A stretch of DNA of 64,000 bases from a virus, in IMG/VR virus record IMGVR_UViG_3300045988_087221; one strand, written 5' to 3'. The position numbers and the translations under genes were made by a program. Below are positions 11,327 to 44,055 of the stretch, one piece after another. Under the pieces are notes generated by a model. That model saw only the letters and a program-made list of their open reading frames with translations, did not search any database and was not told the origin of the DNA. How positions within the stretch are numbered: the first letter of the stretch is position 1; every line of letters begins with the position of its first letter.

Positions 11327-12475
11327 TTAATATATCTGATTAAGCTTACCTGAAGCACTTGAAGTGTATCCAGATTTAATTATATAAATATTAAAATTAC
11401 ATAAACTGGTTACAACGTAACGCTTTTGAGGGTCTATGTAGAATATAGTACGATCGTCAAACTCTTCTCCTATTTTGAGATACTTTATCTCCTTATTAGA
11501 TATAATAGTATCTGTGCGCATATAAGTGCCCTCCAGGACTTTCTTAGCTTCCAATTCTCTCTCAGAATATTCTTTAATAGGCTTTCCTGCAGCTTGGCAC
11601 ACTATTTCTCGACTTTCGACTATCTTATCAAAGAGTTGTCCATCAATATGAGGACTATTCCTTAATAATCCATCTCTTAATTCTAGAGATTCTACAAAAT
11701 AGGTAAAATTAGAGAACTCAAGATTAAAGTCTCTACGGATTGCCTCAATTTTGTCTTTACCATGAATATTAACTTCCTGAGCAAGAGCTTTTACTAGATC
11801 AACAGTAATTATCTGCATCTGTCTAATTAAGTCTAGTACTGGCTCTATTGCATCTTTGTCAATTAAAATATCATTAAGTAATTCAAGTGTAGTTTCTTCA
11901 GGTAGATTACCAAAAGAACGTACATATCTAATACGTGATGGGCGACCTAACAAATTATTATTAATTTCCAACTCATTAGTGGTAAGTAGAAATATTTTAC
12001 GATATTGTGAATTGTGAACACCGTCCATAAAAGAGAGAACTGATGAAGATTCCCTAAATTCTTTTTCGTATTCATCAAAGAAGAAGATACAGTCAAAGTT
12101 AATTTGAGTAGCTAAGAATTTAAGCATATCATTTACTTCTTTACAGGATTTAACAATAATAACTGGAAGTCCGATACGATTACAAAGCTCTTCTGCAGTA
12201 ACTGTTTTACCTGTTCCCTTGATACCATTAAATAATACTCCTAAATTACCTGTAGTATTATTGTAAGTTTTTACAAAATGATCAATAAACTCACTATTAA
12301 TACCATACAATTTGTAATTAAATACAAAAGAATCTCCAAGTCTATTTAAATAATAACCTGTCATTGATTCTTTAACTTCATAAATTCCTTTAGGCAATCC
12401 TTCAGGATGTGCTTTTGTTGTGGCACTACCCTTCACAAAAGTATTACCATCTTGAATCCAAATGTTTTGTTCCAT
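11327..12475 (-). CDS. AAA+ ATPase
   Basis: Walker A GIKGTGKT, Walker B IFFFDEYE, sensor-1-like LLTTNE. Confidence 0.75.
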   Translation of the reverse strand: MEQNIWIQDGNTFVKGSATTKAHPEGLPKGIYEVKESMTGYYLNRLGDSFVFNYKLYGINSEFIDHFVKTYNNTTGNLGVLFNGIKGTGKTVTAEELCNRIGLPVIIVKSCKEVNDMLKFLATQINFDCIFFFDEYEKEFRESSSVLSFMDGVHNSQYRKIFLLTTNELEINNNLLGRPSRIRYVRSFGNLPEETTLELLNDILIDKDAIEPVLDLIRQMQIITVDLVKALAQEVNIHGKDKIEAIRRDFNLEFSNFTYFVESLELRDGLLRNSPHIDGQLFDKIVESREIVCQAAGKPIKEYSERELEAKKVLEGTYMRTDTIISNKEIKYLKIGEEFDDRTIFYIDPQKRYVVTSLCNFNIYIIKSGYTSSASGKLNQIY

Positions 12476-12493
12476 AATTAAATTATTTTATCT

Positions 12494-12886
12494 TTATAAT
12501 CTCATATCAGAGTTTAACTCTAAACCAAATAGAAAATGTTGAAGTTGATGGACATATCTAATCTTTTTGAAGCGATGCTTAGTCTTACCACGACAAAGTT
12601 CCCATACAGAAGGATAATCTTTATTTGGTTTAATGAAGTAATATACACCATCAAATCTTGCTCTCCACCATGTATATCTCTTAGACTTTAACCTTTTCCA
12701 TTTGTTTTTGTCTAATATTTCTGGGGTAAGGGGGATTGGAACTATATCAGTACACTCAATATCTACATCATTATAATTTGCATCTAGAGCTTCATAGTAA
12801 TATTTACCACTGCTCATAATTGTATAATTATTGCAAAACTTTGGTATATAAACTAAATCTCCAGGAATATATTGAATTCGTTCCAT
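12494..12886 (-). CDS. hypothetical protein, paralog of 21902-22273
   Basis: Shares ..PGD.V....PLTPEILDKN.W......VHQLQHFLFGLELN with the other copy. Confidence 0.55.
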   Translation of the reverse strand: MERIQYIPGDLVYIPKFCNNYTIMSSGKYYYEALDANYNDVDIECTDIVPIPLTPEILDKNKWKRLKSKRYTWWRARFDGVYYFIKPNKDYPSVWELCRGKTKHRFKKIRYVHQLQHFLFGLELNSDMRL

Positions 12887-12888
12887 AA

Positions 12889-13476
12889 TTAAACTAGATT
12901 ATTCAACTTCTTATATTCTTCAAATACTTTATCTTCCGCTTCATCTCCCCACATAGTATATATTAGTACTCCATAAGGACAGTATTGAAATATTATAGGG
13001 TCTATTGGTTTAGAAGATATAATAGTTTTTATTTGAAGTTCAGACTCAGGACAAGCTATAAAGAAACAATTTTTATCTACACAAGTTCTCTTAAATATAA
13101 CACAATCTGCCCATTTTTGATCTTTGAAAAAATCTTTTATTTCCCATCCCATTTTTACATGAAAGATACTAAAGGTAGCATCCAAAGACTTCTGAATTAA
13201 TTTATTACTATAATCACTATAATTTTGTACACCAGTAACCCTCCAAATATCCTCATTTATGCGAAGTTCATAGTACTTATTACTTAATTTATACTTAATA
13301 CGTGCTAATTCTTCTAGATTAGCTGCAGGCACAACTCCAGTATAATTTTGTAGACGACCTATAGATAAATTATATTTATGACATAATTCATAGAAAGCTG
13401 AGGTACTAACTAATATTACTGAATCTCCTAAAAGTTCATTTATCACTTTTATATATTCCAGTAATTTTTTTTGCAT
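12889..13476 (-). CDS. hypothetical protein
   Basis: 195-aa ORF. Confidence 0.55.
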   Translation of the reverse strand: MQKKLLEYIKVINELLGDSVILVSTSAFYELCHKYNLSIGRLQNYTGVVPAANLEELARIKYKLSNKYYELRINEDIWRVTGVQNYSDYSNKLIQKSLDATFSIFHVKMGWEIKDFFKDQKWADCVIFKRTCVDKNCFFIACPESELQIKTIISSKPIDPIIFQYCPYGVLIYTMWGDEAEDKVFEEYKKLNNLV

Positions 13477-14097: not shown

Positions 14098-14433
14098 GGT
14101 GGAGCATTGGAGAGTCGAACTCCAGTCACTCCGATTTGCATCAAAACATTCTTACAGCATAGGTTTTAAAGACTATCCTTGTCTGCTAGGGTTGACAAGA
14201 TTAACATATTGTCAACTTCCACCACTCTGTTCCTAAAGTATACAGAGAACTTACAAAAGAAATGGAAAATAGTGCACCTTTCTGTTCCTAAGCAAGTGCT
14301 GCTCGGCTTCTCAGGCTGCGATAGCGTAAGAAGCGGAAGTGTTATTTACTTCGCCAATTAATTTTTTACTTGTCTATCCAAGTTGTCTTGCTGTGTTCCT
14401 TATCTCCTCGAAGTTCAAAACCACGAATGCCCC
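14098..14433 (-). ncRNA. ssrA: tmRNA (complete, phage-encoded)
   Basis: The 5' GGGGCAT pairs with the 3' ATGCTCC-A-CC, giving G3:U70. T-arm GGAGTTCGACTCTCC. Internal tag frame 14311-14355 reads GGC GAA GTA AAT AAC ACT TCC GCT TCT TAC GCT ATC GCA GCC TGA = GEVNNTSASYAIAA*. Confidence 0.85.
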
Positions 14434-24133: not shown

Positions 24134-24518
24134 TAGTTACAATAGAGTTATAAACTATATCCCAATTAGATTCTTCTTTATCTTTGAAATCAGGGTCTTG
24201 AAGATCCTTTATTACAGCAAGATAAGCATTTTTAAATTGTTCTGATGTAATTTTCTCCCAGTTTCTAATATCATATATATTAGATACATATCTACTAATA
24301 GAATCACGTTTTAAGCATATAAAATATATCCAATTATTTTTTATTGAAACAATTTTTAATAAATAGTTCCATACTTTATCTATGTAACAATCACCAACAG
24401 TAAACTTTGAACGAGCCTCTTTCTTCTCTAATGCCCTAATTTTACTGTAAATATTATTACTTTCTTCCTGTAATTTCTTATATTTATTCCTTAGTTCTTC
24501 TAATGTTTCCATAATCAA
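24099..24518 (-). CDS. hypothetical protein
   Basis: 139-aa ORF with an N-terminal coiled coil. Confidence 0.55.
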   Translation of the reverse strand: MIMETLEELRNKYKKLQEESNNIYSKIRALEKKEARSKFTVGDCYIDKVWNYLLKIVSIKNNWIYFICLKRDSISRYVSNIYDIRNWEKITSEQFKNAYLAVIKDLQDPDFKDKEESNWDIVYNSIVTSVNKESNEDKD

Positions 24519-25141
24519 TTTTTATAAATGGCATCAAGAATATCTTTAAAATTAGGATTATCTATTACATATTGTGCATCAGCTTCATTTTTAAATACTG
24601 GATTACCATAATATACATCAGAAGTTGGATTAATAATATTAACTTTATAATAAGGTTTTTTTATACTCCTATCATAAGCTATCATATAGCCGCGTTCACC
24701 GCTATTAACTTTATATTTCCAATCACCATTAAAATATTTAGCAATATCCATAAGATTACTTATTGCAATTATTTTCTTACGAGTTGACGTACTTACAGTA
24801 ATAGATGAATTAAGATATTCACACGCAACAATTTCTGCTATTGTTATCCATTTACTCCTAAATTTGATAATACCCTTAGCTAAATCACTATTTTCCAAGT
24901 CTATCTCCATTCCTTCAGGAATATCAATAGTTAATTGATTATTCTTTATTTCCATATCTTTTATTTCTTTAAATATTACACTAGTGTTATCCGATCTGCT
25001 ATTAGGTATACAATTACCCACAGATGGTCCAATAAGACCACATAGTTTACCATTAAATGCACAATGTGTACATAAAATAGATTTTACTACTTGATAGGTT
25101 TTACCATCATAAGTAAATACTTCACCTATTTTTCTTTCCAT
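24515..25141 (-). CDS. hypothetical protein
   Basis: 208-aa ORF with a Cys-rich N-terminus. Confidence 0.55.
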   Translation of the reverse strand: MERKIGEVFTYDGKTYQVVKSILCTHCAFNGKLCGLIGPSVGNCIPNSRSDNTSVIFKEIKDMEIKNNQLTIDIPEGMEIDLENSDLAKGIIKFRSKWITIAEIVACEYLNSSITVSTSTRKKIIAISNLMDIAKYFNGDWKYKVNSGERGYMIAYDRSIKKPYYKVNIINPTSDVYYGNPVFKNEADAQYVIDNPNFKDILDAIYKN

Positions 25142-25569
25142 AATTTTCTTGTATCATATTTTTTATCTGGCTGTACTTTTATATAGTTACCAGTATATAT
25201 AAGCCTATTTGATACTACTTCACCATTACTATTTAAACAATACAGAGTACCTGCAGGAATAAGAAATTCTCCTAAAAATATTGAATACTCTAATAGAGAT
25301 AAAGTATACCGAAGATTTTTTTGAGTATATAAATCTACAGCAGCTGGATATAGTGGATATAATATACAGTTAAGATAACTATGTAATCCATATTCTATTG
25401 AATCTGCAAATATAATTGGTTCAACTACTAATTGATTTGCAGGATAGTCAAAATTACTATAGAAAAATGGTTTAAAAGTACCCTTATCAGCATAAGTACC
25501 TATCTTATATACTTTAATACCTCTTTTAGCTACTAGTACCTTACTTTCTTTAGTCATATAAAAACACAT
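25126..25569 (-). CDS. MC(W/F)-N-terminus paralog family protein, copy 1
   Basis: Starts MCF. Shared motifs: (K/R)..VYKIG, G(L/Y)HSY, F(L/I)IP.G..Y, GE.VS..IIYTG. Confidence 0.65.
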   Translation of the reverse strand: MCFYMTKESKVLVAKRGIKVYKIGTYADKGTFKPFFYSNFDYPANQLVVEPIIFADSIEYGLHSYLNCILYPLYPAAVDLYTQKNLRYTLSLLEYSIFLGEFLIPAGTLYCLNSNGEVVSNRLIYTGNYIKVQPDKKYDTRKLWKEK

Positions 25570-25579
25570 AAGCTCGATA

Positions 25580-26041
25580 TTAAATTGAATTAAAAGATTC
25601 TTTCAAATTAGTATCAAAAACTCTCCATACACTAGAATATTGTCCTGTATAGATTATCTGATTAGATACAATTTCATTATCTTCATTAACGCAATAAATT
25701 GCTCCTTTAGGTACTATAAATTTACCTAAATATAGAGTCTCGTTAATTGTTGGATAGATACTAATTGTAGGTCTATCTTTAGTATTTTTTTGTATAACAA
25801 CAGATACTGGAGTAATAATAGTAATGGTTAAAGCTATATTTATATATCCATGAAATCCCTCATTTATATGAGATATATTGAAATTTGGATCAGTTGTATT
25901 TTTAATACCTGCTATATAAGAGAATTTAGTTATAAAGTAGGGTGTGAAGATAGCTTTATTAGCCTCCACACCTATTTTATAAACCACTATATCTCTTTTT
26001 GCTCTTAACACTTTACTTTGTTTCGATTTCCAAAAACACAT
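25580..26041 (-). CDS. MC(W/F)-N-terminus paralog family protein, copy 2
   Basis: Starts MCFW and carries the same motif set (EGFHGY, FIVPKGAIY, EIVSNQIIYTG). Confidence 0.65.
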   Translation of the reverse strand: MCFWKSKQSKVLRAKRDIVVYKIGVEANKAIFTPYFITKFSYIAGIKNTTDPNFNISHINEGFHGYINIALTITIITPVSVVIQKNTKDRPTISIYPTINETLYLGKFIVPKGAIYCVNEDNEIVSNQIIYTGQYSSVWRVFDTNLKESFNSI

Positions 26042-26219
26042 AAGCTTTTTATTTTACTTTTGAATAAATTACCAATTAGAACCGTTTCCATAAGGGTATC
26101 TATCTTCTGCTTCCGCATATTCATCACACCCTCCACAATTCTTTGATAGTTTATCGCACCAATAATTGTAATTAGCACAATTAATTTTTCCTTTATTAGG
26201 CCATCTACTGCTCATAAGC

Positions 26220-26567
26220 TTATTCTTTAAAATGTTTAACTATATAATCTAAAGCTCTATCATACTCTTCTTTAGTGCACTCTCTACAATATGCATTATT
26301 AAAAGCTCTATGATAAGGATAAACTATCGGGTTAATATATAGTTCAGACGTATCAGCTTCATACACGAATATAACATCTTCTTTAATATCATAGACTTTA
26401 CAGTATAAACCATTATTATCAGTATAATAGCCCTTCTTGATATTCTTTAATGCTATTTTATCTCTTAGCTCATTAATCTTATTTACTAAAGCTGTATCTT
26501 GCGCACTTAATAGAGTTCGTTGCTTTTGCAATTCTCTAATTTGATTAAAAATTTCTTGATTGTCCAT
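26220..26567 (-). CDS. hypothetical protein
   Basis: 115-aa ORF with an N-terminal coiled coil. Confidence 0.55.
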   Translation of the reverse strand: MDNQEIFNQIRELQKQRTLLSAQDTALVNKINELRDKIALKNIKKGYYTDNNGLYCKVYDIKEDVIFVYEADTSELYINPIVYPYHRAFNNAYCRECTKEEYDRALDYIVKHFKE

Positions 26568-26591
26568 AATTTATTTGTTAATGTATTAAAT

Positions 26592-26630
26592 ATAAAAAGG
26601 AGTATACTAACTAATTAGCTAATATACTCC
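26592..26630 (-). terminator. hairpin plus U-tract terminator closing the RNA island
   Basis: GGAGTATA/TATACTCC 8-bp stem followed on the minus strand by TTTTTATATTT. Confidence 0.55.
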
Positions 26631-26666
26631 TATGAAACCTGGCATTTCAGTCTATCAAAGACTTTG

Positions 26667-26844
26667 GAGAAGTAATACGAATCGAACGTACTTCGGCTAC
26701 TTGATGTATTAAGTCTATCTATTATTATTTATTTGCTAAAACATTACATAGCTAATAATAGAAGACTGTTCACCTGATCATTATCACGTTACCTTTTCGC
26801 CTTATCACCTGTCCTACACACTCCGGATTATGTAGGTAACTCCT
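26667..26844 (-). ncRNA. expanded tRNA-like RNA (family member P2)
   Basis: Canonical T-arm GTACG-TTCGATT-CGTAT. Acceptor AGGAGTT/TACTTCT (6 of 7 pairs). D-like arm CCTACA..TGTAGG. About 100 nt of extra structured sequence sits where the anticodon and variable arms should be. Confidence 0.4.
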
Positions 26845-26850
26845 CTTTTC

Positions 26851-26880
26851 TCTAATTAGGTACACAAATCCCTAATTAGA
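26851..26880 (-). repeat. 10-bp-stem hairpin between the two tRNA-like RNAs
   Basis: tctaattagg/cctaattaga perfect stem. The loop contains TTTGTG (minus sense), as in the conserved-loop hairpin family. Confidence 0.6.
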
Positions 26881-26902
26881 TACAATGACTGAAACTTCGC
26901 AG

Positions 26903-27038
26903 TGGGGGACTTACGAATTAAACGTACTTCGAAACTTTCGTTCACAATTCCTAGGGAGTTACTAGAATTACCCTATTCCATTGTTTCCGTTTCCTTATCA
27001 ATCTGTCCTATGCATTTGCAACTACATAGGTATCCCCC
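26903..27038 (-). ncRNA. expanded tRNA-like RNA (family member P1)
   Basis: Acceptor GGGGGAT/GTCCCCC, T-arm TACG-TTTAATT-CGTA, D-like arm CTATG..CATAG, then ACAGATTGATAAGG and about 60 extra nt. Paralogous to 26667-26844. Confidence 0.45.
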
Positions 27039-27053
27039 AAATTGGTTGTATTG

Positions 27054-27437
27054 TTATTCTTCCAATAAACCTAAATATTTAATATCAGTACTAACTACTT
27101 CTCTGCGTTTATAGTTGACATAGATAGTAGCACCCGCTGGAATTTCAAATATTCCTATTTCATCATATTCGTCCCTACTGCACTTAGCCATCTCTTCAGT
27201 TAAGTATGAATGATAACCTTCATGTATATAAAAATTATCGTAACTCCAAAGTTCATCTCGAGGTCCAAATACAAATTCAGGATCTATCTTTACTGTAGGT
27301 ACAGTCTGAGATTCACGGTACCTAAAATCTCGGTATAAACTTATAAAGCCACCGAAAATCGATGATGTACCTACTTTATAAACTATTAAAGGTTTCTTCA
27401 ATACCAATGGAATTGCAATAGTATTTGTCCAACACAT
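27054..27437 (-). CDS. MC(W/F)-N-terminus paralog family protein, copy 3
   Basis: Starts MCW, with HEGYHSY, FEIPAGATIY and EVVSTDIKYLG. Confidence 0.65.
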   Translation of the reverse strand: MCWTNTIAIPLVLKKPLIVYKVGTSSIFGGFISLYRDFRYRESQTVPTVKIDPEFVFGPRDELWSYDNFYIHEGYHSYLTEEMAKCSRDEYDEIGIFEIPAGATIYVNYKRREVVSTDIKYLGLLEE

Positions 27438-27511
27438 AACCTAATTTAAAATTATTAAAAAAGAGTCCAGCTAATTAAATAGTCAGACTCTAAATAATTA
27501 ATTATATTTTG

Positions 27512-27697
27512 TTACTCAGGATAGAATTTAGATTTATCTACCACATGAGCATCAGTATCGTCAATAGATTCAACTTCAATTAAATCACCTGGAGTAACTC
27601 CCCAGCGATTTTTAATTGCAACTACTGCAGCTACCTGCTTAGTAGGACATCCTGTAATGTAATAAGGAATACCCTTACATTTAAATATTTTTGCCAT
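27512..27697 (-). CDS. hypothetical protein
   Basis: 61-aa ORF. Confidence 0.45.
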   Translation of the reverse strand: MAKIFKCKGIPYYITGCPTKQVAAVVAIKNRWGVTPGDLIEVESIDDTDAHVVDKSKFYPE

Positions 27698-27699
27698 TT

Positions 27700-28032
27700 T
27701 TAATAAATAGTATTAAAACCATATTTAAGAAATAAACCAAATGGAGTAAGATAATCATCTTCTCTAAAAGTTCTGTTCCTAGCTAAACAGATAACTCTCT
27801 GAAATGTTAAATTATCTCTTTTTAAATGCCATAACTTATTAAACTTATCCTTAGTTAATTTATAGTGACCTTCATTTTCTATCCATTTACGAGGCTCATC
27901 ACAAGCATCAACTTGTACAGGATAAGTCAATACCATATCTCCATTAAGTACATCAAATTCAATATATTCACAATCGTCTGGGATTTTAACTAATTTACCC
28001 TTACCATTGTAATCATATATACGTATAATCAT
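27700..28032 (-). CDS. hypothetical protein
   Basis: 110-aa ORF. Confidence 0.5.
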   Translation of the reverse strand: MIIRIYDYNGKGKLVKIPDDCEYIEFDVLNGDMVLTYPVQVDACDEPRKWIENEGHYKLTKDKFNKLWHLKRDNLTFQRVICLARNRTFREDDYLTPFGLFLKYGFNTIY

Positions 28033-28247
28033 TATTTAAATAATTCTATAATTGGATAATAAATAATTGTATTATACTCAGCTATATTTAGTGTCCAAGC
28101 TGTAGCCCAAATCATGGCAAAGACTCCTAGTCCTACAGCGAAATACCCTGCTTTATATATAGTTCGAGTTTCATTTAATAATTGCGCTCTAAGTATTATA
28201 TATAATACAATTGTAACTATTCCTAACAATACCTCAAGTATAATCAT
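28032..28247 (-). CDS. small two-TM membrane protein (hypothetical)
   Basis: 71 aa, hydrophobic. Confidence 0.5.
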   Translation of the reverse strand: MIILEVLLGIVTIVLYIILRAQLLNETRTIYKAGYFAVGLGVFAMIWATAWTLNIAEYNTIIYYPIIELFK

Positions 28248-28474
28248 TTGTATGTATTTGCATCTAAATCAATAGCAGACATACCTGTTCTATATTCGCT
28301 ATAGATAACTATCTTATGAGGTCTTTTCTTAGAATCATACATTATTTCTAATGTTTTATACTCATAAGCTGGTGCTTTAGAGCCACTTCTAGTAGGATAA
28401 TTGTAACTATTAACTAAAGTAACGGTCAATAGTAATCCTATAATTAATAATACTTTTTTCATAATTTTAAACAT
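28244..28474 (-). CDS. small secreted protein (hypothetical)
   Basis: 76 aa with an N-terminal signal peptide. Confidence 0.5.
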   Translation of the reverse strand: MFKIMKKVLLIIGLLLTVTLVNSYNYPTRSGSKAPAYEYKTLEIMYDSKKRPHKIVIYSEYRTGMSAIDLDANTYK

Positions 28475-28896
28475 TTACCAGTATAAATGATTTTATCAGA
28501 TACAACTTCACCTTGGGCATTTATAATATATGTAGCACCTTTAGGGATTATAAAAGTTGCTATATAACCCTCATTTTCAAAAGGAACAGATATCCGTCGC
28601 TTTCCAACTAACATACCCTTAGACCTAATTGCCCTGTTATAAAAAGAAGAGTTACATATAAAATGTATCCCAGTATAACTATGATATGCTTTTTTTATGT
28701 TAACTACCTTATACTTAAAGCCAAGTACCTCATACTCTATAGTAGGTATATAATATGGAGTATTTACTGTATAATCAAAGCCCATAATAATAGACTTACA
28801 AGATTGCTTATTAGCATCGGATACTACCTTATAAACCTTAAAATCTCTATCAGCAATTTGAACATTTATCTTATCTTTAATTTCCGTCCAACACAT
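28459..28896 (-). CDS. MC(W/F)-N-terminus paralog family protein, copy 4
   Basis: Starts MCW, with KAYHSY, FIIPKGATY and EVVSDKIIYTG. Confidence 0.65.
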   Translation of the reverse strand: MCWTEIKDKINVQIADRDFKVYKVVSDANKQSCKSIIMGFDYTVNTPYYIPTIEYEVLGFKYKVVNIKKAYHSYTGIHFICNSSFYNRAIRSKGMLVGKRRISVPFENEGYIATFIIPKGATYIINAQGEVVSDKIIYTGKCLKL

Positions 28897-28900
28897 AGTC

Positions 28901-29314
28901 TTATAGTTTTAAATGGTTACCTGTGTAAATAATATTAGAAGAAACTATTTCTCCTCCATCATTCTCATAATACTCAGAACCTTTAGGTACAATGAATGTT
29001 GCAATAGAATAAATATTATATAATTTAATATCTTTCGCAATCTTACCTAAATAAATCGTTCTATAAAATGAGCGTAAATCAGAGTAAGGCATAGCTATAT
29101 CTTTATAAGAATGATACCCTTCATAAATTACATAAGAGGACTCATCTTTAAAGAATTTAATAGGGTTTAGTTCAACTTTTTTATTTATTTCTTTTGGTTC
29201 ATAAATAAAGTTTTGATATAAACTTTTAAAACCTTTATCAGATACACGACCTAATTTATAAACGTAAAAATCTCGTTTAGCTATTTTTACATCACATCTA
29301 CCTATCCAGCACAT
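28901..29314 (-). CDS. MC(W/F)-N-terminus paralog family protein, copy 5
   Basis: Starts MCW, with YEGYHSY, FIVPKGSEY and EIVSSNIIYTG. Confidence 0.65.
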   Translation of the reverse strand: MCWIGRCDVKIAKRDFYVYKLGRVSDKGFKSLYQNFIYEPKEINKKVELNPIKFFKDESSYVIYEGYHSYKDIAMPYSDLRSFYRTIYLGKIAKDIKLYNIYSIATFIVPKGSEYYENDGGEIVSSNIIYTGNHLKL

Positions 29315-29316
29315 AA

Positions 29317-29754
29317 TTATTTGCTAAAATTACTTATTCTTAAATATTTGCCTGTATAAATAATCTCAGAAGATACTATATGTCCATACTTATTTTCAAA
29401 GTATTCAGCACCCTTTGGAACTATAAACGTAGCTATACAACAGAACTTATATCCTTCTAAAGATTCTTCCAAATCCTTGATATAATTACCTAGACATAAA
29501 CATCTAGTTGGATAAGAGTTGTCATCTATAGCTACCCATTTATAAGAATGGTAACCTTTATCTATCGTATAAACACCTATACAAGGACTATAAGTTACTA
29601 AAGGGACTATTCTATTAAGACATTTAGGAGCATAGTTATACCCCCTAATATCACTAATAAAAATATTATTCCATACAATCTTCCCTATTTTATAGACATA
29701 GAAATCTCTTTCAGCTATCTTTTTAATAGCTGTATCATCGCCTGTCCAACACAT
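29317..29754 (-). CDS. MC(W/F)-N-terminus paralog family protein, copy 6
   Basis: Starts MCW, with DKGYHSY, FIVPKGAEY and HIVSSEIIYTG. Confidence 0.65.
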   Translation of the reverse strand: MCWTGDDTAIKKIAERDFYVYKIGKIVWNNIFISDIRGYNYAPKCLNRIVPLVTYSPCIGVYTIDKGYHSYKWVAIDDNSYPTRCLCLGNYIKDLEESLEGYKFCCIATFIVPKGAEYFENKYGHIVSSEIIYTGKYLRISNFSK

Positions 29755-30711: not shown

Positions 30712-30954
30712 ATTAAAAAGTGCCTAAGGGTCGCTACTTCCTCTCCTCCCTAATTGCTAGCAGGGTATGCACTTGCCACTAAGACACTTAGCGCTTTAGG
30801 CTTTTTAAGGAGCCTTAACTTATTAAAGTTCTCACATATATTCATAACCAAAAACAGATAAATAATTCCATTTTCACAAACAGAACTTTTACCGAAAACT
30901 TAGAAAATTTTCAAACTTATGAGTATAAAACATCGAATATGAATAATAATAGAG

Positions 30955-31027
30955 TAAATACGGACAGACTCGAACTGCCAACCTCCGGATTAGTGTCCGT
31001 TGCTCTATCCAATTGAGCTACGCATTC
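30955..31027 (-). tRNA. tRNA-like gene with a 6-nt anticodon loop CACTAA (contains CTA); identity undetermined or pseudo
   Basis: Good acceptor (GAATGCG/CGTATTT), D arm (GCTC..GAGC) and T arm (GGCAG-TTCGAGT-CTGTC). The anticodon stem CGGA/TCCG encloses only 6 nt. Confidence 0.5.
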
Positions 31028-31186: not shown

Positions 31187-31750
31187 TTATTTATATGCAT
31201 AAAGACATATGTTTTTATTATTACTTAGTATTTTACTTAATTGCTTAAACTTTATAGGACTTATAACAAAACAACCTTCACTTACATTCATTGGTGCATA
31301 AATAGGATAAGTTGGAATATCACTAACAGTATAGTAAGGATGAATTAATAACATTCTTTGTTTTGCATTACTATTGGTATTAGATAATCCTTCTAGTATG
31401 TAACTAGGTAAGTTTAATCTTGTTATATTATAACCTCCTACTTTATAAAATCCTAAAGAAGAACAATGACTCCCTAACTTATTACTAAATACGGGATGAT
31501 CTTTTGTACTTCCTAAACCCATTCCATGAGCACATAAACTTTCTAGTACCACAGTTTTCTTATGTAAATCATATACATAAAATCTATTTTTACCAGAATG
31601 TTTATTAAAATCAACAAATATAATATAGTTAGTATTCATATTGTATTTATTTACATATTGAATACCTTTATTAATTACTTGTTGAGACAGCTCATCATGT
31701 GAACAACTTACACATAATAAGCTAATTAAAAATATTAATATTTGCTTCAT
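31187..31750 (-). CDS. lipoprotein, L,D-transpeptidase (YkuD_2)-like
   Basis: Lipobox LLCVSC. C-terminal H..(n)..SEGCFV resembles the LDT His/Cys active site. Standard code. Confidence 0.5.
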   Translation of the reverse strand: MKQILIFLISLLCVSCSHDELSQQVINKGIQYVNKYNMNTNYIIFVDFNKHSGKNRFYVYDLHKKTVVLESLCAHGMGLGSTKDHPVFSNKLGSHCSSLGFYKVGGYNITRLNLPSYILEGLSNTNSNAKQRMLLIHPYYTVSDIPTYPIYAPMNVSEGCFVISPIKFKQLSKILSNNKNICLYAYK

Positions 31751-33210: not shown

Positions 33211-33782
33211 CCTACCACACTTGCTTTTACACAAGCTAACTTAAATAAAGGGATTCGAACCCTTAATCCTCAAGAGATATTTAACGACGACTTTAGAGGC
33301 GCTTCCGTCAATCTGCTGCCGTATACCAATTCCGCCATATTTAAGTTATTGTGGTCTGGACTATTTTACTACCATATTAGAAATCTTGCAAGTAAGTATA
33401 TAAGGTTTAATCTAACCTCTAATAGCAGTCTGCTCCCCTTATTTCTGCGAATCTTGCCAGTTTAATTTTAAATATACAATTTCTAACTTAGGTATCTCCT
33501 CTATAGTCTCTACGCCATTTATGCTGTAACACTTCAATTTACATTTAAGATAGATTAGCGTTCTATCACAATTTAGTTCGCCATCGCCAAAATCTTATGT
33601 CACCATAGATGAGGTTTCTGTTGCAAGTCAATTAGATTTCTGAATACTGCTTCTATAATCATTACTCTGTTTCTTACACAGACGCTAACCTTTTTACAAT
33701 TAGTAATTAACTTGTTTAATTAGGGAGATTCTACTTCTGACCTTTCGTATCAGAGCACTCAAAACTGAATAAAGTATTTTTT
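33211..33782 (-). ncRNA. group I intron (IC3-like) in the anticodon loop between U34 and A35
   Basis: P1 ACUU^AAAA pairs with UUUUGAGU, with U-G at the splice site. The terminal nucleotide is G. The core GUAGAGACUAUAGAGGAGAUACCUAAG resembles the cyanobacterial tRNA-Leu intron P7/P3/P8 (GCAGAGACUCGACGGGAGCUACCCUAACG). P7' is AUAGUCCA. Confidence 0.75.
33239..33345 (-). ncRNA. tRNA-like element nested in the intron P9 loop
   Basis: Perfect 7-bp acceptor, Leu-like D arm GGCGGAATTGGTATAC, and canonical T arm AAGGG-TTCGAAT-CCCTT. The central arm GACGG/TCGTC carries a 14-nt loop containing CTCTAAA. 106-107 nt. Confidence 0.45.
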
Positions 33783-34091: not shown

Positions 34092-34451
34092 TTATAATTG
34101 TTCTAAAATTCCTTTTGCAATATATGAAGACACTTCTCTAGTAGTGTGATAAGAATCATTAAGTACTAAAATATACTTATCTTTATCATCAGGTTTCTTA
34201 GTTAATTCAGATATATATTTCTTATTAATTAAGAATCCTTTAGTTACTACTATATAATCAAGACACAATTTCTTAGTAATACTAGTTAAAGAACAACCAA
34301 TAGTAAACTTTCTATTATCCTTAGTTATTATTAAGACATATTTATCTAATGTCTCTAAACTAACAATATTCTCTACATTTATTTGTCTGTATTCAATGCC
34401 TTTAAATACAAGAAATGTATCAGAATCAATCTGTATTGTTTTTATTTCCAT
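34092..34451 (-). CDS. LytTR-type DNA-binding domain protein (candidate regulator)
   Basis: 119 aa. The pattern I..IVSLE......IITKD.....SL..I...L.....V.KGFLINKKYI is LytTR-like. Confidence 0.45.
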   Translation of the reverse strand: MEIKTIQIDSDTFLVFKGIEYRQINVENIVSLETLDKYVLIITKDNRKFTIGCSLTSITKKLCLDYIVVTKGFLINKKYISELTKKPDDKDKYILVLNDSYHTTREVSSYIAKGILEQL

Positions 34452-35268: not shown

Positions 35269-35341
35269 GGTCACGCTAGGGATTCGAACCCTGTACTGTA
35301 GTCTCACAAACTACCGTGTTACCAGTTACACTAGACGGACC
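35269..35341 (-). tRNA. tRNA-His (anticodon GTG), imperfect acceptor
   Basis: G-1 present. D GTGT..ACAC and anticodon arm GTAGT-TTGTGAG-ACTAC are clean. The acceptor needs two bulges and the T stem has a C-A mismatch. Confidence 0.6.
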
Positions 35342-35839: not shown

Positions 35840-35847
35840 TAATTTTG

Positions 35848-35937
35848 CATACGGAGTAGGATTCGAACCCACGTTGTTTAACTCTCGTCTCTATAGGTTT
35901 TGGAGACCTACCCTTTCGACCACTCAGGCATCCGTAC
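35848..35937 (-). tRNA. type II (Ser-like) tRNA with anticodon CCA
   Basis: Acceptor GTACGGA/TCCGTAT, G73, Ser-like D arm GCCTGAGTGGTCGAAAGGG, perfect anticodon stem TAGGT/ACCTA with loop CTCCAAA, 21-nt variable region, T GTGGG-TTCGAAT-CCTAC. Confidence 0.65.
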
Positions 35938-40990: not shown

Positions 40991-41572
40991 TTATCTTACG
41001 AATCCAGGTACAGAAACGATGAATCCGTTTTCTCTCTTGCAGTCTGGATGACCAGTAGCTGGTGCTACTAAATCCTTTCTGCGAAGATTAATGTGCTTTT
41101 CCTTTTCAACACTAAGCACCATTGCTGAAACAATGTACATTGTACCCCTCTTAGGTTCAGGAAGGTTTTCAACCTCCCCATAGAATACCTTTGCAATACC
41201 ACAGCAAAAGTTGGTAAAGCTATTGGCTACTCTAGCTATTTTACCTGATGCAGGATAGGTAGTTCCATCATTTAATTTGATATCATGTGGGGTGAGATTG
41301 ATGAACTCTGTGGGAAGTACATCGAAGTGTATCCCTTCTTCATTCATATCAAGGTCGTCACAACCTTCCTCATGATTATCCAAATGAATATCATAGTATA
41401 CTTTACCATTATATTCATAGGAACTTGTAATAGTTCCTAACTCGTTAGTACACTCTTCATCAGGAGCATAGCTAATTATGCGTGTGCCATTTTCTAAAAT
41501 TTTTTTCATTTTATTTATTGTTAATGTGTTATTCCAAATTTTATCTAGTTTTGGATTTACTAGTATAAACAT
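40991..41572 (-). CDS. hypothetical protein
   Basis: 193-aa ORF. About 700 nt of non-coding sequence lies upstream. Confidence 0.6.
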   Translation of the reverse strand: MFILVNPKLDKIWNNTLTINKMKKILENGTRIISYAPDEECTNELGTITSSYEYNGKVYYDIHLDNHEEGCDDLDMNEEGIHFDVLPTEFINLTPHDIKLNDGTTYPASGKIARVANSFTNFCCGIAKVFYGEVENLPEPKRGTMYIVSAMVLSVEKEKHINLRRKDLVAPATGHPDCKRENGFIVSVPGFVR

Positions 41573-42288
41573 TTAATTGTTCATAGATAGCTAATAACGT
41601 ACAACTGTTACTAACTATTTCGTCCAAGTCTCATCAGTATGAATTTTATAGTCTCCTTGGCTGACTAAACAATTTCTCTTACTCCTTGTTCAAGGGAAGC
41701 CTCTCTTTAAGCACTGAGGTTATTGCTTTAAAAATGTGTAGTTCTTCAACACTTACTATCTCCTACACTGATTTTCATTCAGCTTTCTTTTTGTATATTT
41801 GTAAAATATACTCAAATACTCTCAATGTGTTACGACTGCTTATCTACTTCTCATACAACTTAGCTTTATAATAATGTTAATTAATTATATATTAAGAAGC
41901 AACTCCACTCTAGATAAGTAAGTGAGCTGTGTTTTTTTACTTTAAACTTATTTTTAGTTTAACCGTCTAACTAAATAAAGGACTTAATGTTGTTTTAATT
42001 TTGTCATTTTTGTTTTTTCAAATAATACAAAGTAACAGCTCCCCATACACCAAATTGGCAAAATGGCAAATAAAGTGAAAGTACACTAAATGTGCCCTCC
42101 CACACATCTGCCGTTGCGCGCTTACCTCTCTAGTGTATCAGAGAGCTATGTTACTGTGTTTTATTTTTAATTTTGTTGTTAAATTTAGCTGTCTTTCCAG
42201 CTTGCCAGAATAAAAAATAGAAACATTGTTAACTAACTCTGTTGTTTTGTTGTTTATTGTTTTGTTGTGATTTTGTTGTTTACGACAG

Positions 42289-43958: not shown

Positions 43959-44030
43959 TCTCTTATGGTGTAATGGTCAGCACAGAAGACTCTAAATCTT
44001 TTAGTCAGGGTTCGAATCCTTGTGAGAGAA
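43959..44030 (+). tRNA. amber suppressor tRNA (anticodon CTA), Gln-like
   Basis: Canonical cloverleaf: acceptor TCTCTTA/TGAGAGA (U1:A72), D GTGT-AATGGTCA-GCAC, anticodon arm GAAGA-CTCTAAA-TCTTT, T CAGGG-TTCGAAT-CCTTG. The D arm is nearly identical to that of tRNA-Gln(TTG) at 35041-35111. Confidence 0.9.
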
Positions 44031-44055
44031 CAATTTAATTATAAAAATATGTATT

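What the first reader, a model, noticed from the sequence alone, without database searches (positions are those of the whole stretch)
25126..29754. Six-copy tandem family of about 130-150-aa proteins that all begin Met-Cys-(Trp/Phe) and share an invariant GYHSY-type His
The copies are at 25126, 25580, 27054, 28459, 28901 and 29317. They share MC(W/F) at the N-terminus, (R/K)D..VYK(I/V)G, (E/K)G(Y/F)H(S/G)Y, F(I/L)(I/V)P.G..Y and GE(I/V)VS..IIYTG, and are otherwise highly diverged. An invariant Cys at position 2, which becomes N-terminal after Met removal, together with a conserved His is reminiscent of N-terminal-nucleophile or Cys-His hydrolases. Tandem diversified arrays in phage early regions are typical of host-takeover or counter-defence arsenals. 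The array is interrupted by the tRNA-like RNA island and by small membrane or secreted ORFs.
Basis: partly seen in the sequence, partly recalled or inferred. Interest (0 to 1): 0.65.

Follow-up and report, generated by a model that had tools for sequence, protein, structure and literature searches.

The report
Phage gene array with N-terminal cysteine
Six neighbouring genes in this crAss-like gut phage belong to a very large, phage-only protein family of unknown function that nearly always starts Met-Cys-aromatic, has a confidently predicted all-beta fold unlike any solved structure, and also forms tandem arrays in unrelated jumbo phages.

Summary
Six homologous ORFs of 127-153 aa lie on the minus strand at the stated coordinates. 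All begin MC(W/F) and share the VYK, GYHSY, IPxG and EIVS motifs.

They belong to PHROG 13450 (function unknown). The family has about 3,960 clusters at 50% identity and no Pfam, NCBIfam, PADLOC or PDB sequence match. Of 389 sampled members, 361 (93%) start Met-Cys. Lys20 and Pro110 are almost never substituted, and His68 is kept in about 97%.

Two AlphaFold models (pLDDT 85 and 94) are all-beta and have no Foldseek neighbour in the PDB (TM at most 0.21). Membership in the Ntn, SRAP, HypC, papain, Hint or DPBB families is therefore not supported.

Tandem same-strand arrays of 1-7 copies recur in all 37 related IMG/VR loci, in a topoisomerase-encoding phage, and in jumbo phages, including cultured Xanthomonas phage XacN1. 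No relative was found in bacterial genomes.

The paralogues are old, separately conserved lineages under relaxed purifying selection (dN/dS 0.17-0.68). Variation sits in the loops.

They lie in the standard-code block of a phage whose opposite-strand structural block reads TAG as sense. This suggests early expression, which was not measured.

My best reading is a set of early cytoplasmic effectors that share a Cys2/Lys/His site and differ in their specificity loops. Whether they catalyse a reaction is unproven. I could not measure the Cys-His distance.

The parts
29317..29754 (-). Family copy 6 (145 aa, MCWTGDD...). It is the first array member in the direction of transcription. Its stop lies 2 nt before the start of copy 5.
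   Evidence: ORF. HMM E=6e-40. Orthologues at 80-86% identity in L005, L010, L029 and L032. dN/dS 0.27-0.53.
28901..29314 (-). Family copy 5 (137 aa, MCWIGRC...). This copy was modelled with the deep alignment.
   Evidence: E=8.5e-41. AF2 pLDDT 93.7, pTM 0.87, all-beta. No PDB neighbour. dN/dS 0.17-0.40.
28459..28896 (-). Family copy 4 (145 aa, MCWTEIK...). It starts 4 nt after the stop of copy 5.
   Evidence: E=3e-37. Orthologues at 94% in L002 and L003. dN/dS 0.20-0.46.
28244..28474 (-). Interrupting 76-aa ORF with a signal-peptide-like N-terminus (MFKIMKKVLLIIGLLLTVTLVNS). Not a family member.
   Evidence: Translation. Judged by eye only.
28032..28247 (-). Interrupting 71-aa ORF with two hydrophobic segments, probably a small membrane protein. 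Not a family member.
   Evidence: Translation. Judged by eye only.
27512..28032 (-). Two further interrupting ORFs of 110 aa and 61 aa with no family match.
   Evidence: No Pfam or PHROG hit for the 110-aa ORF.
27054..27437 (-). Family copy 3 (127 aa, MCWTNTIAIPLV...). It is the most divergent and the only acidic copy (pI 5.1).
   Evidence: (E=1e-25). 100% identical in L003 and 68-83% in many loci. dN/dS 0.17-0.65.
26568..27053 (-). Conserved non-coding island inside the array. It holds a T-arm-like hairpin followed by CUUCUCCA. An intrinsic-terminator hairpin at 26631-26598 with a U-run ends it just upstream of the next ORF.
   Evidence: No ORF. No tRNA or Rfam family. 75-97% DNA identity in about 30 loci, for some loci higher than the protein identity of the adjacent family genes. 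Consensus hairpins with a few compensatory changes. Terminator scan.
26220..26567 (-). Interrupting 115-aa ORF. Not a family member.
   Evidence: No Pfam or PHROG hit.
25580..26041 (-). Family copy 2 (153 aa, MCFWKSK...), of the MCF subtype with GFHGY.
   Evidence: E=1e-33. Orthologues at 90-93% in L001, L003 and L007. dN/dS 0.28-0.43.
25126..25569 (-). Family copy 1 (147 aa, MCFYMTK...), of the MCF subtype. Its stop codon is TAG and it overlaps the start of the next gene (24515-25141) by 16 nt.
   Evidence: (E=4e-30). AF2 pLDDT 85.3. No PDB neighbour. dN/dS 0.57-0.68. The 160-161-aa database versions are TAG read-throughs.

Best explanation
The six genes are members of an ancient, virus-restricted multigene family (PHROG 13450). 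The products are about 125-155 aa, have no signal peptide, and form a single all-beta domain.

Shown:
- The family is very large and diverse.
- It is encoded as same-strand arrays. Within the runs copy 6-5-4 and copy 2-1 neighbouring genes are 2-10 nt apart, and the spacing between the first three (2 and 4 nt) suggests translational coupling.
- Each paralogue in this phage is an old lineage with its own orthologues in other phages.
- Copy number and content vary between near-identical phages.
- Selection is purifying but relaxed, and substitutions and indels concentrate in a few loop regions.
- A small set of residues is kept across all lineages: Met1-Cys2-(W/F/Y/L)3, Lys20, His68 and Pro110-x-Gly112 (copy-5 numbering).
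- The predicted fold has no solved structural neighbour.

Inferred:
- The genes are expressed early. They lie in the standard-code block next to the tRNA genes, while the opposite-strand structural block needs TAG read as sense.
- Methionine aminopeptidase removes Met1, because Cys is a permitted second residue. This would leave a free N-terminal cysteine.
- The proteins act in the host cytoplasm as a panel of effectors. They share one conserved functional site built around the N-terminal Cys, His and Lys. They differ in variable loops that select different host or competitor targets.

Whether the shared site catalyses a reaction, captures something covalently, or only binds a common ligand or metal is not decided by the evidence. 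I lean slightly towards chemistry that involves the N-terminal cysteine, because a position-2 Cys kept in 93% of members of so divergent a family is hard to explain by folding alone.
For: Homology and size:
- establish homology among the six copies.
- A word-indexed search found 2,362 hits.
- An exhaustive profile search found 3,963 clusters at 50% identity with E below 1e-3, and 745 below 1e-10.
- 90 of 127 diverse members match PHROG 13450.

No known family:
- Pfam, NCBIfam, PADLOC and PDB sequence searches are empty.

Fold:
- pLDDT 85.3 and 93.7, all-beta. In the deep-alignment model (copy 5) the N-terminal ten residues are ordered (mean pLDDT 92) and residues 3-5 form a strand.
- No PDB neighbour. 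In BFVD only uncharacterised viral proteins match.

Conservation:
- 361 of 389 sampled proteins start MC.
- Lys20 is substituted only twice (to Arg) and Pro110 never; His68 is kept in about 97%.

Arrays and turnover:
- 1-7 same-strand copies in each of 37 IMG/VR loci, with truncated copies present.
- Separate orthogroups for each paralogue.
- dN/dS 0.17-0.68.
- Variation maps to residues 4-11, 24-30, 37-60, 71-103 and the C-terminus.

Same architecture in other lineages:
- L039-L041, a phage encoding topoisomerase and RNA ligase.
- Jumbo-phage contig L047 with six tandem copies.
- XacN1 ORF073, inside the tRNA-rich 66-kb terminal repeat that its authors propose encodes host takeover (PMC5852040).

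Context:
- TAG-sense reading raises plus-strand ORF content after 43 kb from 726 to 4,287 aa. A tRNA(CUA) lies at 43959-44031.
- No relative in 185,579 bacterial and archaeal species genomes, searched with two pattern sets.
Against: - No expression, localisation or activity data exist for any member.
- The Cys2-His68 geometry could not be measured.
- Direct-coupling analysis (effective sequences about 170) recovers the model's strand pairings. The couplings that place Trp3 next to Ser69 and Asn118 rank only 36-40, and they are driven by lineage-specific residue combinations.
- His is replaced by Tyr, Asn or Arg in some members that keep Cys2, including one of two close orthologues.
- Internal domains of fused proteins lack any N-terminal Cys yet persist.
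- Several other polar residues that look invariant in this phage (Asn118, Ser125, Glu122, Asp15) are not conserved in the MCL lineage.
- A tandem, loop-variable beta-sandwich family is also what a purely binding scaffold would look like.
- 'Early' is inferred from genome organisation only.
Confidence: 0.45

Rival explanations
1. Non-catalytic binding scaffolds. The domain would be a small lectin-like beta-sandwich whose variable loops bind different host proteins or small molecules, acting as inhibitors or sponges. The conserved Cys2, aromatic residue 3, Lys and His would be structural, for example capping the sheet or holding a metal.
For: - The weak top Foldseek hits are all beta-sandwich lectins or glucanases such as galectins, LNS domains, GH16 and PL7.
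- Residues 3-5 form a strand with high pLDDT, so residue 3 may be a core residue.
- Variation is concentrated in the loops.
- His-to-Tyr swaps occur between orthologues, and internal domains lack Cys.
- Many paralogues per genome, with gain and loss.
Against: - The lectin matches are insignificant (E at least 0.16, TM at most 0.21).
- A surface or N-terminal Cys kept in 93% of members at 20-30% identity, plus an almost invariant Lys and a 97% His, is more conservation of polar residues than a pure scaffold needs.
- Only one Cys and one His are conserved, which is too few ligands for a structural zinc site.
Confidence: 0.3
2. One reading: the proteins are members of a known N-terminal-cysteine or Cys-His enzyme family. 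Candidates are Ntn hydrolases or class II amidotransferases, SRAP/YedK, papain/NlpC-P60, and Hint/intein.
For: - Cys at position 2 would be exposed after Met removal (established methionine aminopeptidase specificity).
- A well-conserved His.
- The domain size and all-beta character superficially resemble mini-inteins.
Against: - No Pfam or NCBIfam hit in 6 plus 104 plus 7 members.
- No PDB sequence hit with the profile.
- No structural neighbour among 350,542 PDB chains for two confident models, although all these families have many solved structures.
- The model has no helices, so it cannot be an alpha-beta-beta-alpha Ntn fold or carry a papain-type nucleophile helix.
- There is no conserved C-terminal His-Asn as in inteins.
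Confidence: 0.03
3. The conserved N-terminus is a processing or stability signal rather than an active site. Removal of Met-Cys would expose W, F, Y or L, which are the primary destabilising residues of the bacterial N-end rule (ClpS/ClpAP). The effectors would then be short-lived.
For: The third residue is W, F, Y or L in nearly all sampled members (counts: W 192, F 58, Y 7, L 101 of 361). This is the ClpS-recognised set according to established knowledge of the bacterial N-degron pathway.
Against: - No bacterial activity is known that removes an N-terminal Cys after Met excision.
- Residues 3-5 are predicted to form a strand within the fold, at pLDDT above 90. That favours a buried hydrophobic role.
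- V, M, Q and D also occur at position 3.
- The idea does not explain why Cys specifically is invariant.
Confidence: 0.05
4. A metallochaperone-like or cofactor-carrying role analogous to HypC/HupF. In those proteins the N-terminal Cys thiolate together with a conserved His holds a metal centre.
For: The motif-level analogy is MC(hydrophobic) at the N-terminus plus one conserved His in a small beta protein. The HypC features come from the literature surfaced (PMC10847431, PMC8692609).
Against: - No PF01455 hit.
- No OB-fold neighbour.
- The size is about 140 aa rather than about 90 aa.
- There are no hydrogenase or metal-cluster genes nearby.
- Multiple divergent paralogues per phage are not expected for a chaperone.
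Confidence: 0.04

Closest known systems
PHROG 13450 (phage orthologous group, function unknown)
   Same: It is the same family. 90 of 127 diverse members match it, with a best E of 2.9e-16. The six window copies match weakly (E 4e-4 to 5e-3), except copy 3, which has no hit.
   Different: The PHROG carries no annotation. The window copies lie at its periphery, and the metagenomic family is far larger than the PHROG's source genomes. Only IAS virus, MT835539, XacN1, Xoo-sp13 and two Stenotrophomonas jumbo phages are detectable in GenBank phages.
SRAP domain proteins (YedK/HMCES, PF02586)
   Same: Cys at position 2 would be the N-terminal residue after Met removal, and a conserved His lies elsewhere in the domain. 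Most copies are basic (pI 8.4-9.4). In SRAP proteins the N-terminal Cys forms a thiazolidine with abasic-site aldehydes. The same 1,2-aminothiol would be available here (established chemistry, inferred here).
   Different: - No sequence or structural similarity.
- The order of conserved residues differs.
- The N-terminal motif is MC(W/F/L) rather than MCGR.
- The proteins are about 140 aa and all-beta.

This is a resemblance in possible chemistry only, not membership.
Ntn hydrolases and class II glutamine amidotransferases with a Cys N-terminal nucleophile
   Same: Cys directly follows the initiator Met.
   Different: The predicted fold is all-beta with no helices, is not a four-layer alpha-beta-beta-alpha sandwich, and is about half the size. 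There are no Pfam or PDB hits.
HypC/HupF (PF01455)
   Same: An N-terminal MC(hydrophobic) motif plus a single conserved His in a small beta-rich protein.
   Different: No homology or OB fold was detected. The genomic context and the multi-paralogue organisation are unrelated.
Tandem paralogous host-modifying or host-takeover genes of large lytic phages, such as the T4 Alt/ModA/ModB ADP-ribosyltransferase paralogues and the SPO1 terminal-repeat host-takeover module
   Same: Several diverged paralogues sit side by side in a presumptive early region. They would differ in target specificity while sharing one core site. In XacN1 the family sits in the long terminal repeat, which its authors compare to the SPO1 takeover region (PMC5852040).
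   Different: There is no sequence or fold relation to ADP-ribosyltransferases. The function here is untested. The comparison with T4 and SPO1 rests on general knowledge and on the XacN1 authors' analogy.
Concanavalin-like or galectin-type beta-sandwich lectins
   Same: About 135 aa, all-beta, and these are the only kind of fold that appears among the best (non-significant) Foldseek hits.
   Different: E at least 0.16, TM 0.1-0.2 and rmsd 13-16 A, which is no real match. These lectins have no conserved N-terminal Cys.

Membership tests
PHROG 13450 | Significant match to the family profile HMM | tested here: met
   90 of 127 diverse members match, with a best E of 2.9e-16. Five of the six window copies match at E 4e-4 to 5e-3, and copy 3 does not.
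Ntn hydrolase / class II amidotransferase | Nucleophile (Cys, Ser or Thr) at the mature N-terminus | tested here: inconclusive
   Cys is residue 2 in all six copies and in 361 of 389 family members. Removal of Met1 is inferred from methionine aminopeptidase specificity and was not observed.
Ntn hydrolase / class II amidotransferase | Four-layer alpha-beta-beta-alpha sandwich fold | tested here: not met
   The AF2 models are essentially all-beta: none has a helix in the core, and only copy 1 has a 4-residue helix at its C-terminus. No Ntn structure appears among the Foldseek hits, and the best E is 0.16.
Ntn hydrolase / class II amidotransferase | Sequence match to GATase_2, CBAH, Peptidase_C69 or related models | tested here: not met
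   No Pfam or NCBIfam hit in the six copies or in 104 diverse members.
SRAP (YedK/HMCES) | SRAP fold and a PF02586 match | tested here: not met
   No Pfam hit. No PDB sequence hit. No structural neighbour.
SRAP (YedK/HMCES) | Cys2 forms a thiazolidine cross-link with abasic DNA | not testable with these tools
   This needs biochemistry: an AP-DNA cross-linking assay with wild-type and C2A protein.
Papain-like / NlpC-P60 Cys-His hydrolases | The catalytic Cys sits at the N-terminus of a helix packed against a beta-sheet that carries the His | tested here: not met
   The models have no helix in the core domain, and no structural match was found.
Hint / intein | N-terminal Cys plus a block-B TxxH, a C-terminal His-Asn, and the Hint fold | tested here: not met
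   There is no conserved C-terminal HN, and the His motif is G(Y/F)H(S/A)(Y/F). No Hint structures appear among the Foldseek hits.
HypC/HupF | PF01455 match and an OB-fold of about 80-90 aa | tested here: not met
   No Pfam hit. The length is 127-153 aa. No OB-fold neighbour was found.
3D / RlpA-like double-psi beta-barrel | Profile similarity to a DPBB domain. One distant member, P0379, is named '3D domain-containing' by JGI. | tested here: not met
   P0379 has no Pfam hit at E up to 10. hhalign of the 127-sequence profile against E. coli RlpA gives probability 0.1. No DPBB structure appears among the Foldseek hits.
Known anti-phage defence proteins (PADLOC) | Match to a defence-system model | tested here: not met
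   No hits at E up to 1.
Phage anti-defence proteins (general class) | Demonstrated inhibition of a host defence system | not testable with these tools
   No anti-defence library or experiment was available. Only the context (presumptive early region, turnover, diversification) is suggestive.

The most novel reading that the evidence does not exclude
The family is a previously unrecognised class of N-terminal-cysteine proteins in a new beta fold. After Met removal, the free 1,2-aminothiol of Cys2, assisted by His68 and Lys20, would perform covalent chemistry on a host or defence molecule. Possibilities include trapping an aldehyde such as an abasic site, intercepting a thioester intermediate, or acting as an acyl-transfer nucleophile. 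Phages as different as Crassvirales and Xanthomonas jumbo phages would carry panels of such 'warhead' effectors with different specificity loops.
Probability: 0.17. Interest if true: 0.85.

Novelty: new variant of a known kind. Interest (0 to 1): 0.58.

Why it matters
This is one of the larger pieces of phage dark matter seen in the searches here. It has about 4,000 clusters at 50% identity. It is absent from the Pfam, NCBIfam and PADLOC libraries and has no sequence match in the PDB. It is multi-copy in abundant human-gut crAss-like phages and in jumbo phages.

It combines three features that seldom occur together:
- a confidently predicted fold with no solved neighbour;
- a near-universal cysteine as the first mature residue, which in other protein families marks unusual covalent chemistry;
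- repeated tandem expansion in unrelated phage lineages.

If the proteins are host-takeover or counter-defence effectors, they would help explain what the presumptive early regions of uncultured gut phages do. They would also provide a new reactive protein scaffold.

The question is testable now, because homologues exist in cultured phages: XacN1, Xoo-sp13, and Stenotrophomonas phages CM1 and RAS14.

If the proteins are only binding scaffolds, the finding is still a useful family definition, but of ordinary interest.

Tried and rejected
- Known-family searches all came back empty. These covered Pfam, NCBIfam and PADLOC on the six copies, Pfam on 104 diverse members and on seven distant members, and single-profile and deep-profile searches of PDB sequences. 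The best PDB hit was LnaB at E 0.07.
- Foldseek of two models against the PDB gave only insignificant lectin-like hits. Against BFVD it found only uncharacterised viral proteins, including five XacN1 paralogues, plus weak matches to giant-virus proteins that contain DUF4116. I could not follow these up.
- I considered an ADP-ribosyltransferase H-Y-E reading of the GYHSY motif and dropped it. There is no fold match. The two toxin entries are multi-domain proteins at E 1.2.
- I followed the DPBB/3D-domain lead from a JGI product name and from the resemblance of IPxG(S/T)...N..G..V to the RlpA hairpin. hhalign rejected it with probability 0.1.
- tblastn with the HMM consensus failed because of low-complexity filtering.
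- crAss001 has no homologue in the about 93 kb I scanned, so its published expression data cannot be used.
- Literature searches found no description of the family. I checked papers on epsilon and zeta crAss-like genomes, Yutin 2021, the jumbo-phage comparative survey, and the XacN1 paper.
- Direct-coupling analysis aimed at placing the N-terminus gave a signal that is too weak and confounded by lineage.
- GTDB genome scans with two degenerate patterns found nothing, but the patterns are narrow.
- tRNA co-location holds in the window, IAS virus, XacN1 and many loci, but not in L011, L045 or L047. I treat it as a feature of these accessory regions, not as a functional link.

Full report
**Observation**

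The six ORFs are at the stated coordinates, all on the minus strand. Their lengths are 147, 153, 127, 145, 137 and 145 aa.

They align over their full length at 30-40% identity to copy 1. There are 17 invariant columns, including M1, C2, the VYK triplet, the His of G(Y/F/L)H(S/G)Y, FxxPxG and VS.

Pairwise BLASTP E-values run from 1e-4 to 3e-29 for most pairs. Copy 3 is the outlier, but it matches the family HMM at 1e-25; that HMM was built from an alignment that includes the six copies.

A Met-Cys start is not a background property of these genomes. Outside the family only 12 of 753 ORFs of at least 100 aa begin MC, against 118 family ORFs. Both Cys codons and both Phe codons occur at positions 2 and 3, so the constraint is on the protein.

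Copy 6 to copy 5 and copy 5 to copy 4 are separated by 2 and 4 nt, and copy 2 to copy 1 by 10 nt. The upstream context is often TAAnnATG. The short gaps suggest translational coupling. They also leave no room for an alternative upstream start, so Cys really is residue 2.

**What the window is**

- All ORFs from about 0.2 to 43.2 kb are on the minus strand. They include 10 tRNAs and a tmRNA.
- On the plus strand after 43.5 kb, ORF content jumps from 726 to 4,287 aa when TAG is read as sense. TGA-sense makes no difference. A tRNA with anticodon CUA sits at 43959-44031.
- A 786-aa plus-strand product, read with TAG as Gln, is a terminase large subunit. It is 26-28% identical to crAss-like TerL and 42-47% identical to uncultured human-faecal phages.
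- Related IMG/VR contigs are 53-225 kb.

The window is therefore a divergent, TAG-recoded crAss-like phage. The family lies in its standard-code block, and copy 1 itself stops with TAG. Placing this block early in infection is an inference from the organisation of recoded phages, not a measurement.

**Size and distribution of the family**

- A word-indexed search found 2,362 proteins, none with a Pfam domain or an informative name.
- An exhaustive HMM search of 1.84 billion cluster representatives found 3,963 clusters at E up to 1e-3, and 745 at E up to 1e-10.
- 90 of 127 diverse members match PHROG 13450, which has unknown function.

In 37 IMG/VR loci every contig carries 1-7 same-strand copies. 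Copy content differs between phages whose shared copies are about 90% identical, and truncated or split copies occur.

Each window paralogue has its own orthologues at 60-100% identity in other phages. The duplications are therefore old, and the lineages are maintained separately.

Pairwise dN/dS is 0.17-0.68, which indicates purifying but relaxed selection. Within orthogroups, variation is concentrated at residues 4-11, 24-30, 37-60, 71-103 and the C-terminus, while the motifs stay fixed.

Beyond Crassvirales the family occurs in:
- IAS virus, where gp013 sits among tRNAs upstream of the helicase.
- A phage encoding topoisomerase and RNA ligase (L039-L041). Tandem copies there are accompanied by 3- and 4-domain fusion proteins.
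- Jumbo-phage contigs of 235-365 kb, with six tandem copies in L047.
- The cultured jumbo phages XacN1, Xoo-sp13, and Stenotrophomonas phages CM1 and RAS14.

XacN1 ORF073 starts MCL and keeps IAxxPIxVYK, GLHAF and IPAGAxFxLGxxGEVVS. It lies inside the 66-kb, tRNA-rich terminal repeat, which its authors suggest encodes host takeover (PMC5852040).

crAss001 has no detectable homologue in the about 93 kb I scanned. Two pattern scans of 185,579 bacterial and archaeal species genomes found none either.

**Conservation across the whole family**

Over 389 sampled proteins from three searches:
- 361 start Met-Cys.
- The third residue is W, F, Y or L, and rarely V, Q or D (M also occurs in a jumbo-phage copy).
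- Lys20 is substituted only twice (to Arg) and Pro110 never (copy-5 numbering).
- His68 is kept in about 97%.
- Asn118, Ser125, Glu122 and Asp15 look invariant in this phage but change in the MCL lineage, for example Asn118 to Gly.

There are exceptions that matter:
- Internal domains of the fusion proteins cannot have an N-terminal Cys, yet mostly retain the His.
- Some members with Cys2 have Tyr or Asn at the His position.
- The close orthologues L041|4903 (GFHAY) and L039|6019 (GFYAY) differ at exactly that residue.

**Structure**

- Copy 1, modelled with the six-sequence alignment, gave pLDDT 85.3.
- Copy 5, modelled with a 127-sequence alignment, gave pLDDT 93.7 and pTM 0.87.
- Both models are essentially all-beta; copy 1 has only a 4-residue helix at its C-terminus. 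In the copy-5 model the first ten residues are ordered (mean pLDDT 92) and residues 3-5 form a strand.
- Foldseek against 350,542 PDB chains found nothing significant for either model. The best E was 0.16-0.18 and TM was at most 0.21. The top hits were galectins, LNS domains and glucanases.
- Against BFVD the only real matches are uncharacterised viral proteins. These include five A0A292G* entries, which I take to be XacN1 paralogues because XacN1 is a family host.

A direct-coupling analysis on 356 sequences (effective number about 170) recovers the strand pairings of the model:
- 16-25 with 103-112, antiparallel.
- 103-109 with 129-136.
- The 114-117 / 122-125 hairpin.
- The His strand with the EIVS strand.

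This supports the model. Couplings between Trp3 and Ser69 or Asn118 rank only 36-40 of 11,325 and are driven by lineage-specific residue combinations. They do not establish that Cys2 is next to His68. The tools return no coordinates, so the key distance could not be measured.

**Interpretation**

Membership in any known N-terminal-Cys or Cys-His family is not supported. This covers Ntn and amidotransferase, SRAP, HypC, papain/NlpC, Hint, and the 3D/RlpA barrel suggested by one JGI name.

Three things remain:
- a virus-restricted family with an apparently new beta fold;
- a near-universal N-terminal Met-Cys-hydrophobic signature, together with an invariant Lys and a near-invariant His;
- loop-focused diversification, with repeated tandem expansion in tRNA-rich accessory regions (presumably early) of unrelated large lytic phages.

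The best-supported explanation is a panel of early cytoplasmic effectors with one shared functional site and different specificity loops. I give that reading a confidence of about 0.45.

Cys2 is conserved across sequences that otherwise share only about 20-30% identity. This makes me lean towards chemistry or ligand binding that needs the free N-terminal cysteine. The His-to-Tyr swaps and the Cys-less internal domains keep a purely binding-scaffold reading alive at about 0.3. The degron and metallochaperone readings are minor alternatives.

**Novelty and score**

The genomic phenomenon is a known kind: fast-turnover tandem families in presumptive early regions of phages. The family itself is listed only as a function-unknown PHROG and as uncharacterised database entries. 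I found no description of it in the papers searched.

I rate it a new variant of a known kind, with interest 0.58.

There is about a 0.17 chance that it is a new class of N-terminal-cysteine 'warhead' proteins. That would be of high interest (0.85).

Noticed in passing
window 26568-27053 (minus strand): A conserved non-coding island sits inside the array and is present in about 30 related loci at 75-97% DNA identity. The 3' module (26568-26702) has a T-arm-like hairpin (AGUACG-UUCGAUU-CGUAUU) followed by CUUCUCCA. A 15-bp terminator hairpin with a U-run follows, about 30 nt before the next ORF. A few compensatory changes are seen. ARAGORN and Rfam call nothing here. It is a candidate small RNA or tRNA-like element. 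In about 100-kb relatives it lies directly upstream of the MCF-type family gene.
   Followed up: partly
window 43959-44031 (+) and plus strand 44-64 kb: A suppressor tRNA with anticodon CUA sits at the head of the plus-strand block. Reading TAG as sense raises ORF content there from 726 to 4,287 aa and restores a 786-aa crAss-like terminase and a 723-aa portal-sized ORF. The minus-strand block uses the standard code.
   Followed up: partly
window 4229-6688 (minus strand): An 819-aa phage-encoded P-type cation-transporting ATPase. It matches E1-E2_ATPase, Cation_ATPase_N/C and the HAD hydrolase domain, and PHROG 12316 at E 2.5e-130. This is an unusual cargo gene for a phage.
   Followed up: no
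window 14098-14433 (minus strand): A phage-encoded tmRNA with tag peptide GEVNNTSASYAIAA. Both ARAGORN and Rfam RF00023 call it.
   Followed up: no
window 41581-41667 (minus strand): A RAGATH-1 hammerhead ribozyme (Rfam RF03152, 80.8 bits against a gathering score of 56.3), immediately downstream of the 193-aa ORF at 40991-41572.
   Followed up: no
window 31187-31750 (minus strand): A 187-aa lipoprotein-like protein (N-terminus MKQILIFLISLLCVSC) with a YkuD_2 L,D-transpeptidase domain (E 1.9e-31), just upstream of the tRNA and family region.
   Followed up: no
window 30954-31027, 33240-33344, 35269-35340, 35847-35937 (minus strand): Several odd tRNA-like genes. One has a two-base 'anticodon' call in ARAGORN. 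Two are found only by Rfam at low scores (33-36 bits), and one of those is 105 nt long. There is also a 91-nt tRNA-Trp. These may carry introns or be degenerate.
   Followed up: no
window 30607-30573 and 26631-26598 (minus strand): Two terminator-like 15-bp hairpins share a similar core (TTAGnTAAT...TAGTTAG). They bracket the upstream part of the array (copies 6 to 3) and suggest that it forms one transcription unit.
   Followed up: no
L039 6399-7865; L041 5276-6397; L047 8947-12171: In other phage lineages the family occurs as fused 3-4-domain polypeptides (488 and 373 aa), in which only the first domain starts MC. It also occurs as a six-gene tandem array in a 290-kb jumbo-phage contig. A tRNA-Cys(GCA) lies about 5-6 kb from the family genes in L039 and L041.
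   Followed up: partly
window 34092-34451 (minus strand): A 119-aa protein with a LytTR DNA-binding domain (E 6e-9) lies about 0.6 kb from the main tRNA cluster (35.0-36.8 kb). It may be a phage transcription regulator.
   Followed up: no
L038 (IAS virus) 5236-5970; L049 (XacN1) 12247-13158: A Band 7 / prohibitin (SPFH) gene lies within a few kb of the family gene in both IAS virus and XacN1. Among the 20 window ORFs scanned against Pfam none was an SPFH protein; most ORFs of the window were not scanned. This may be coincidence.
   Followed up: no
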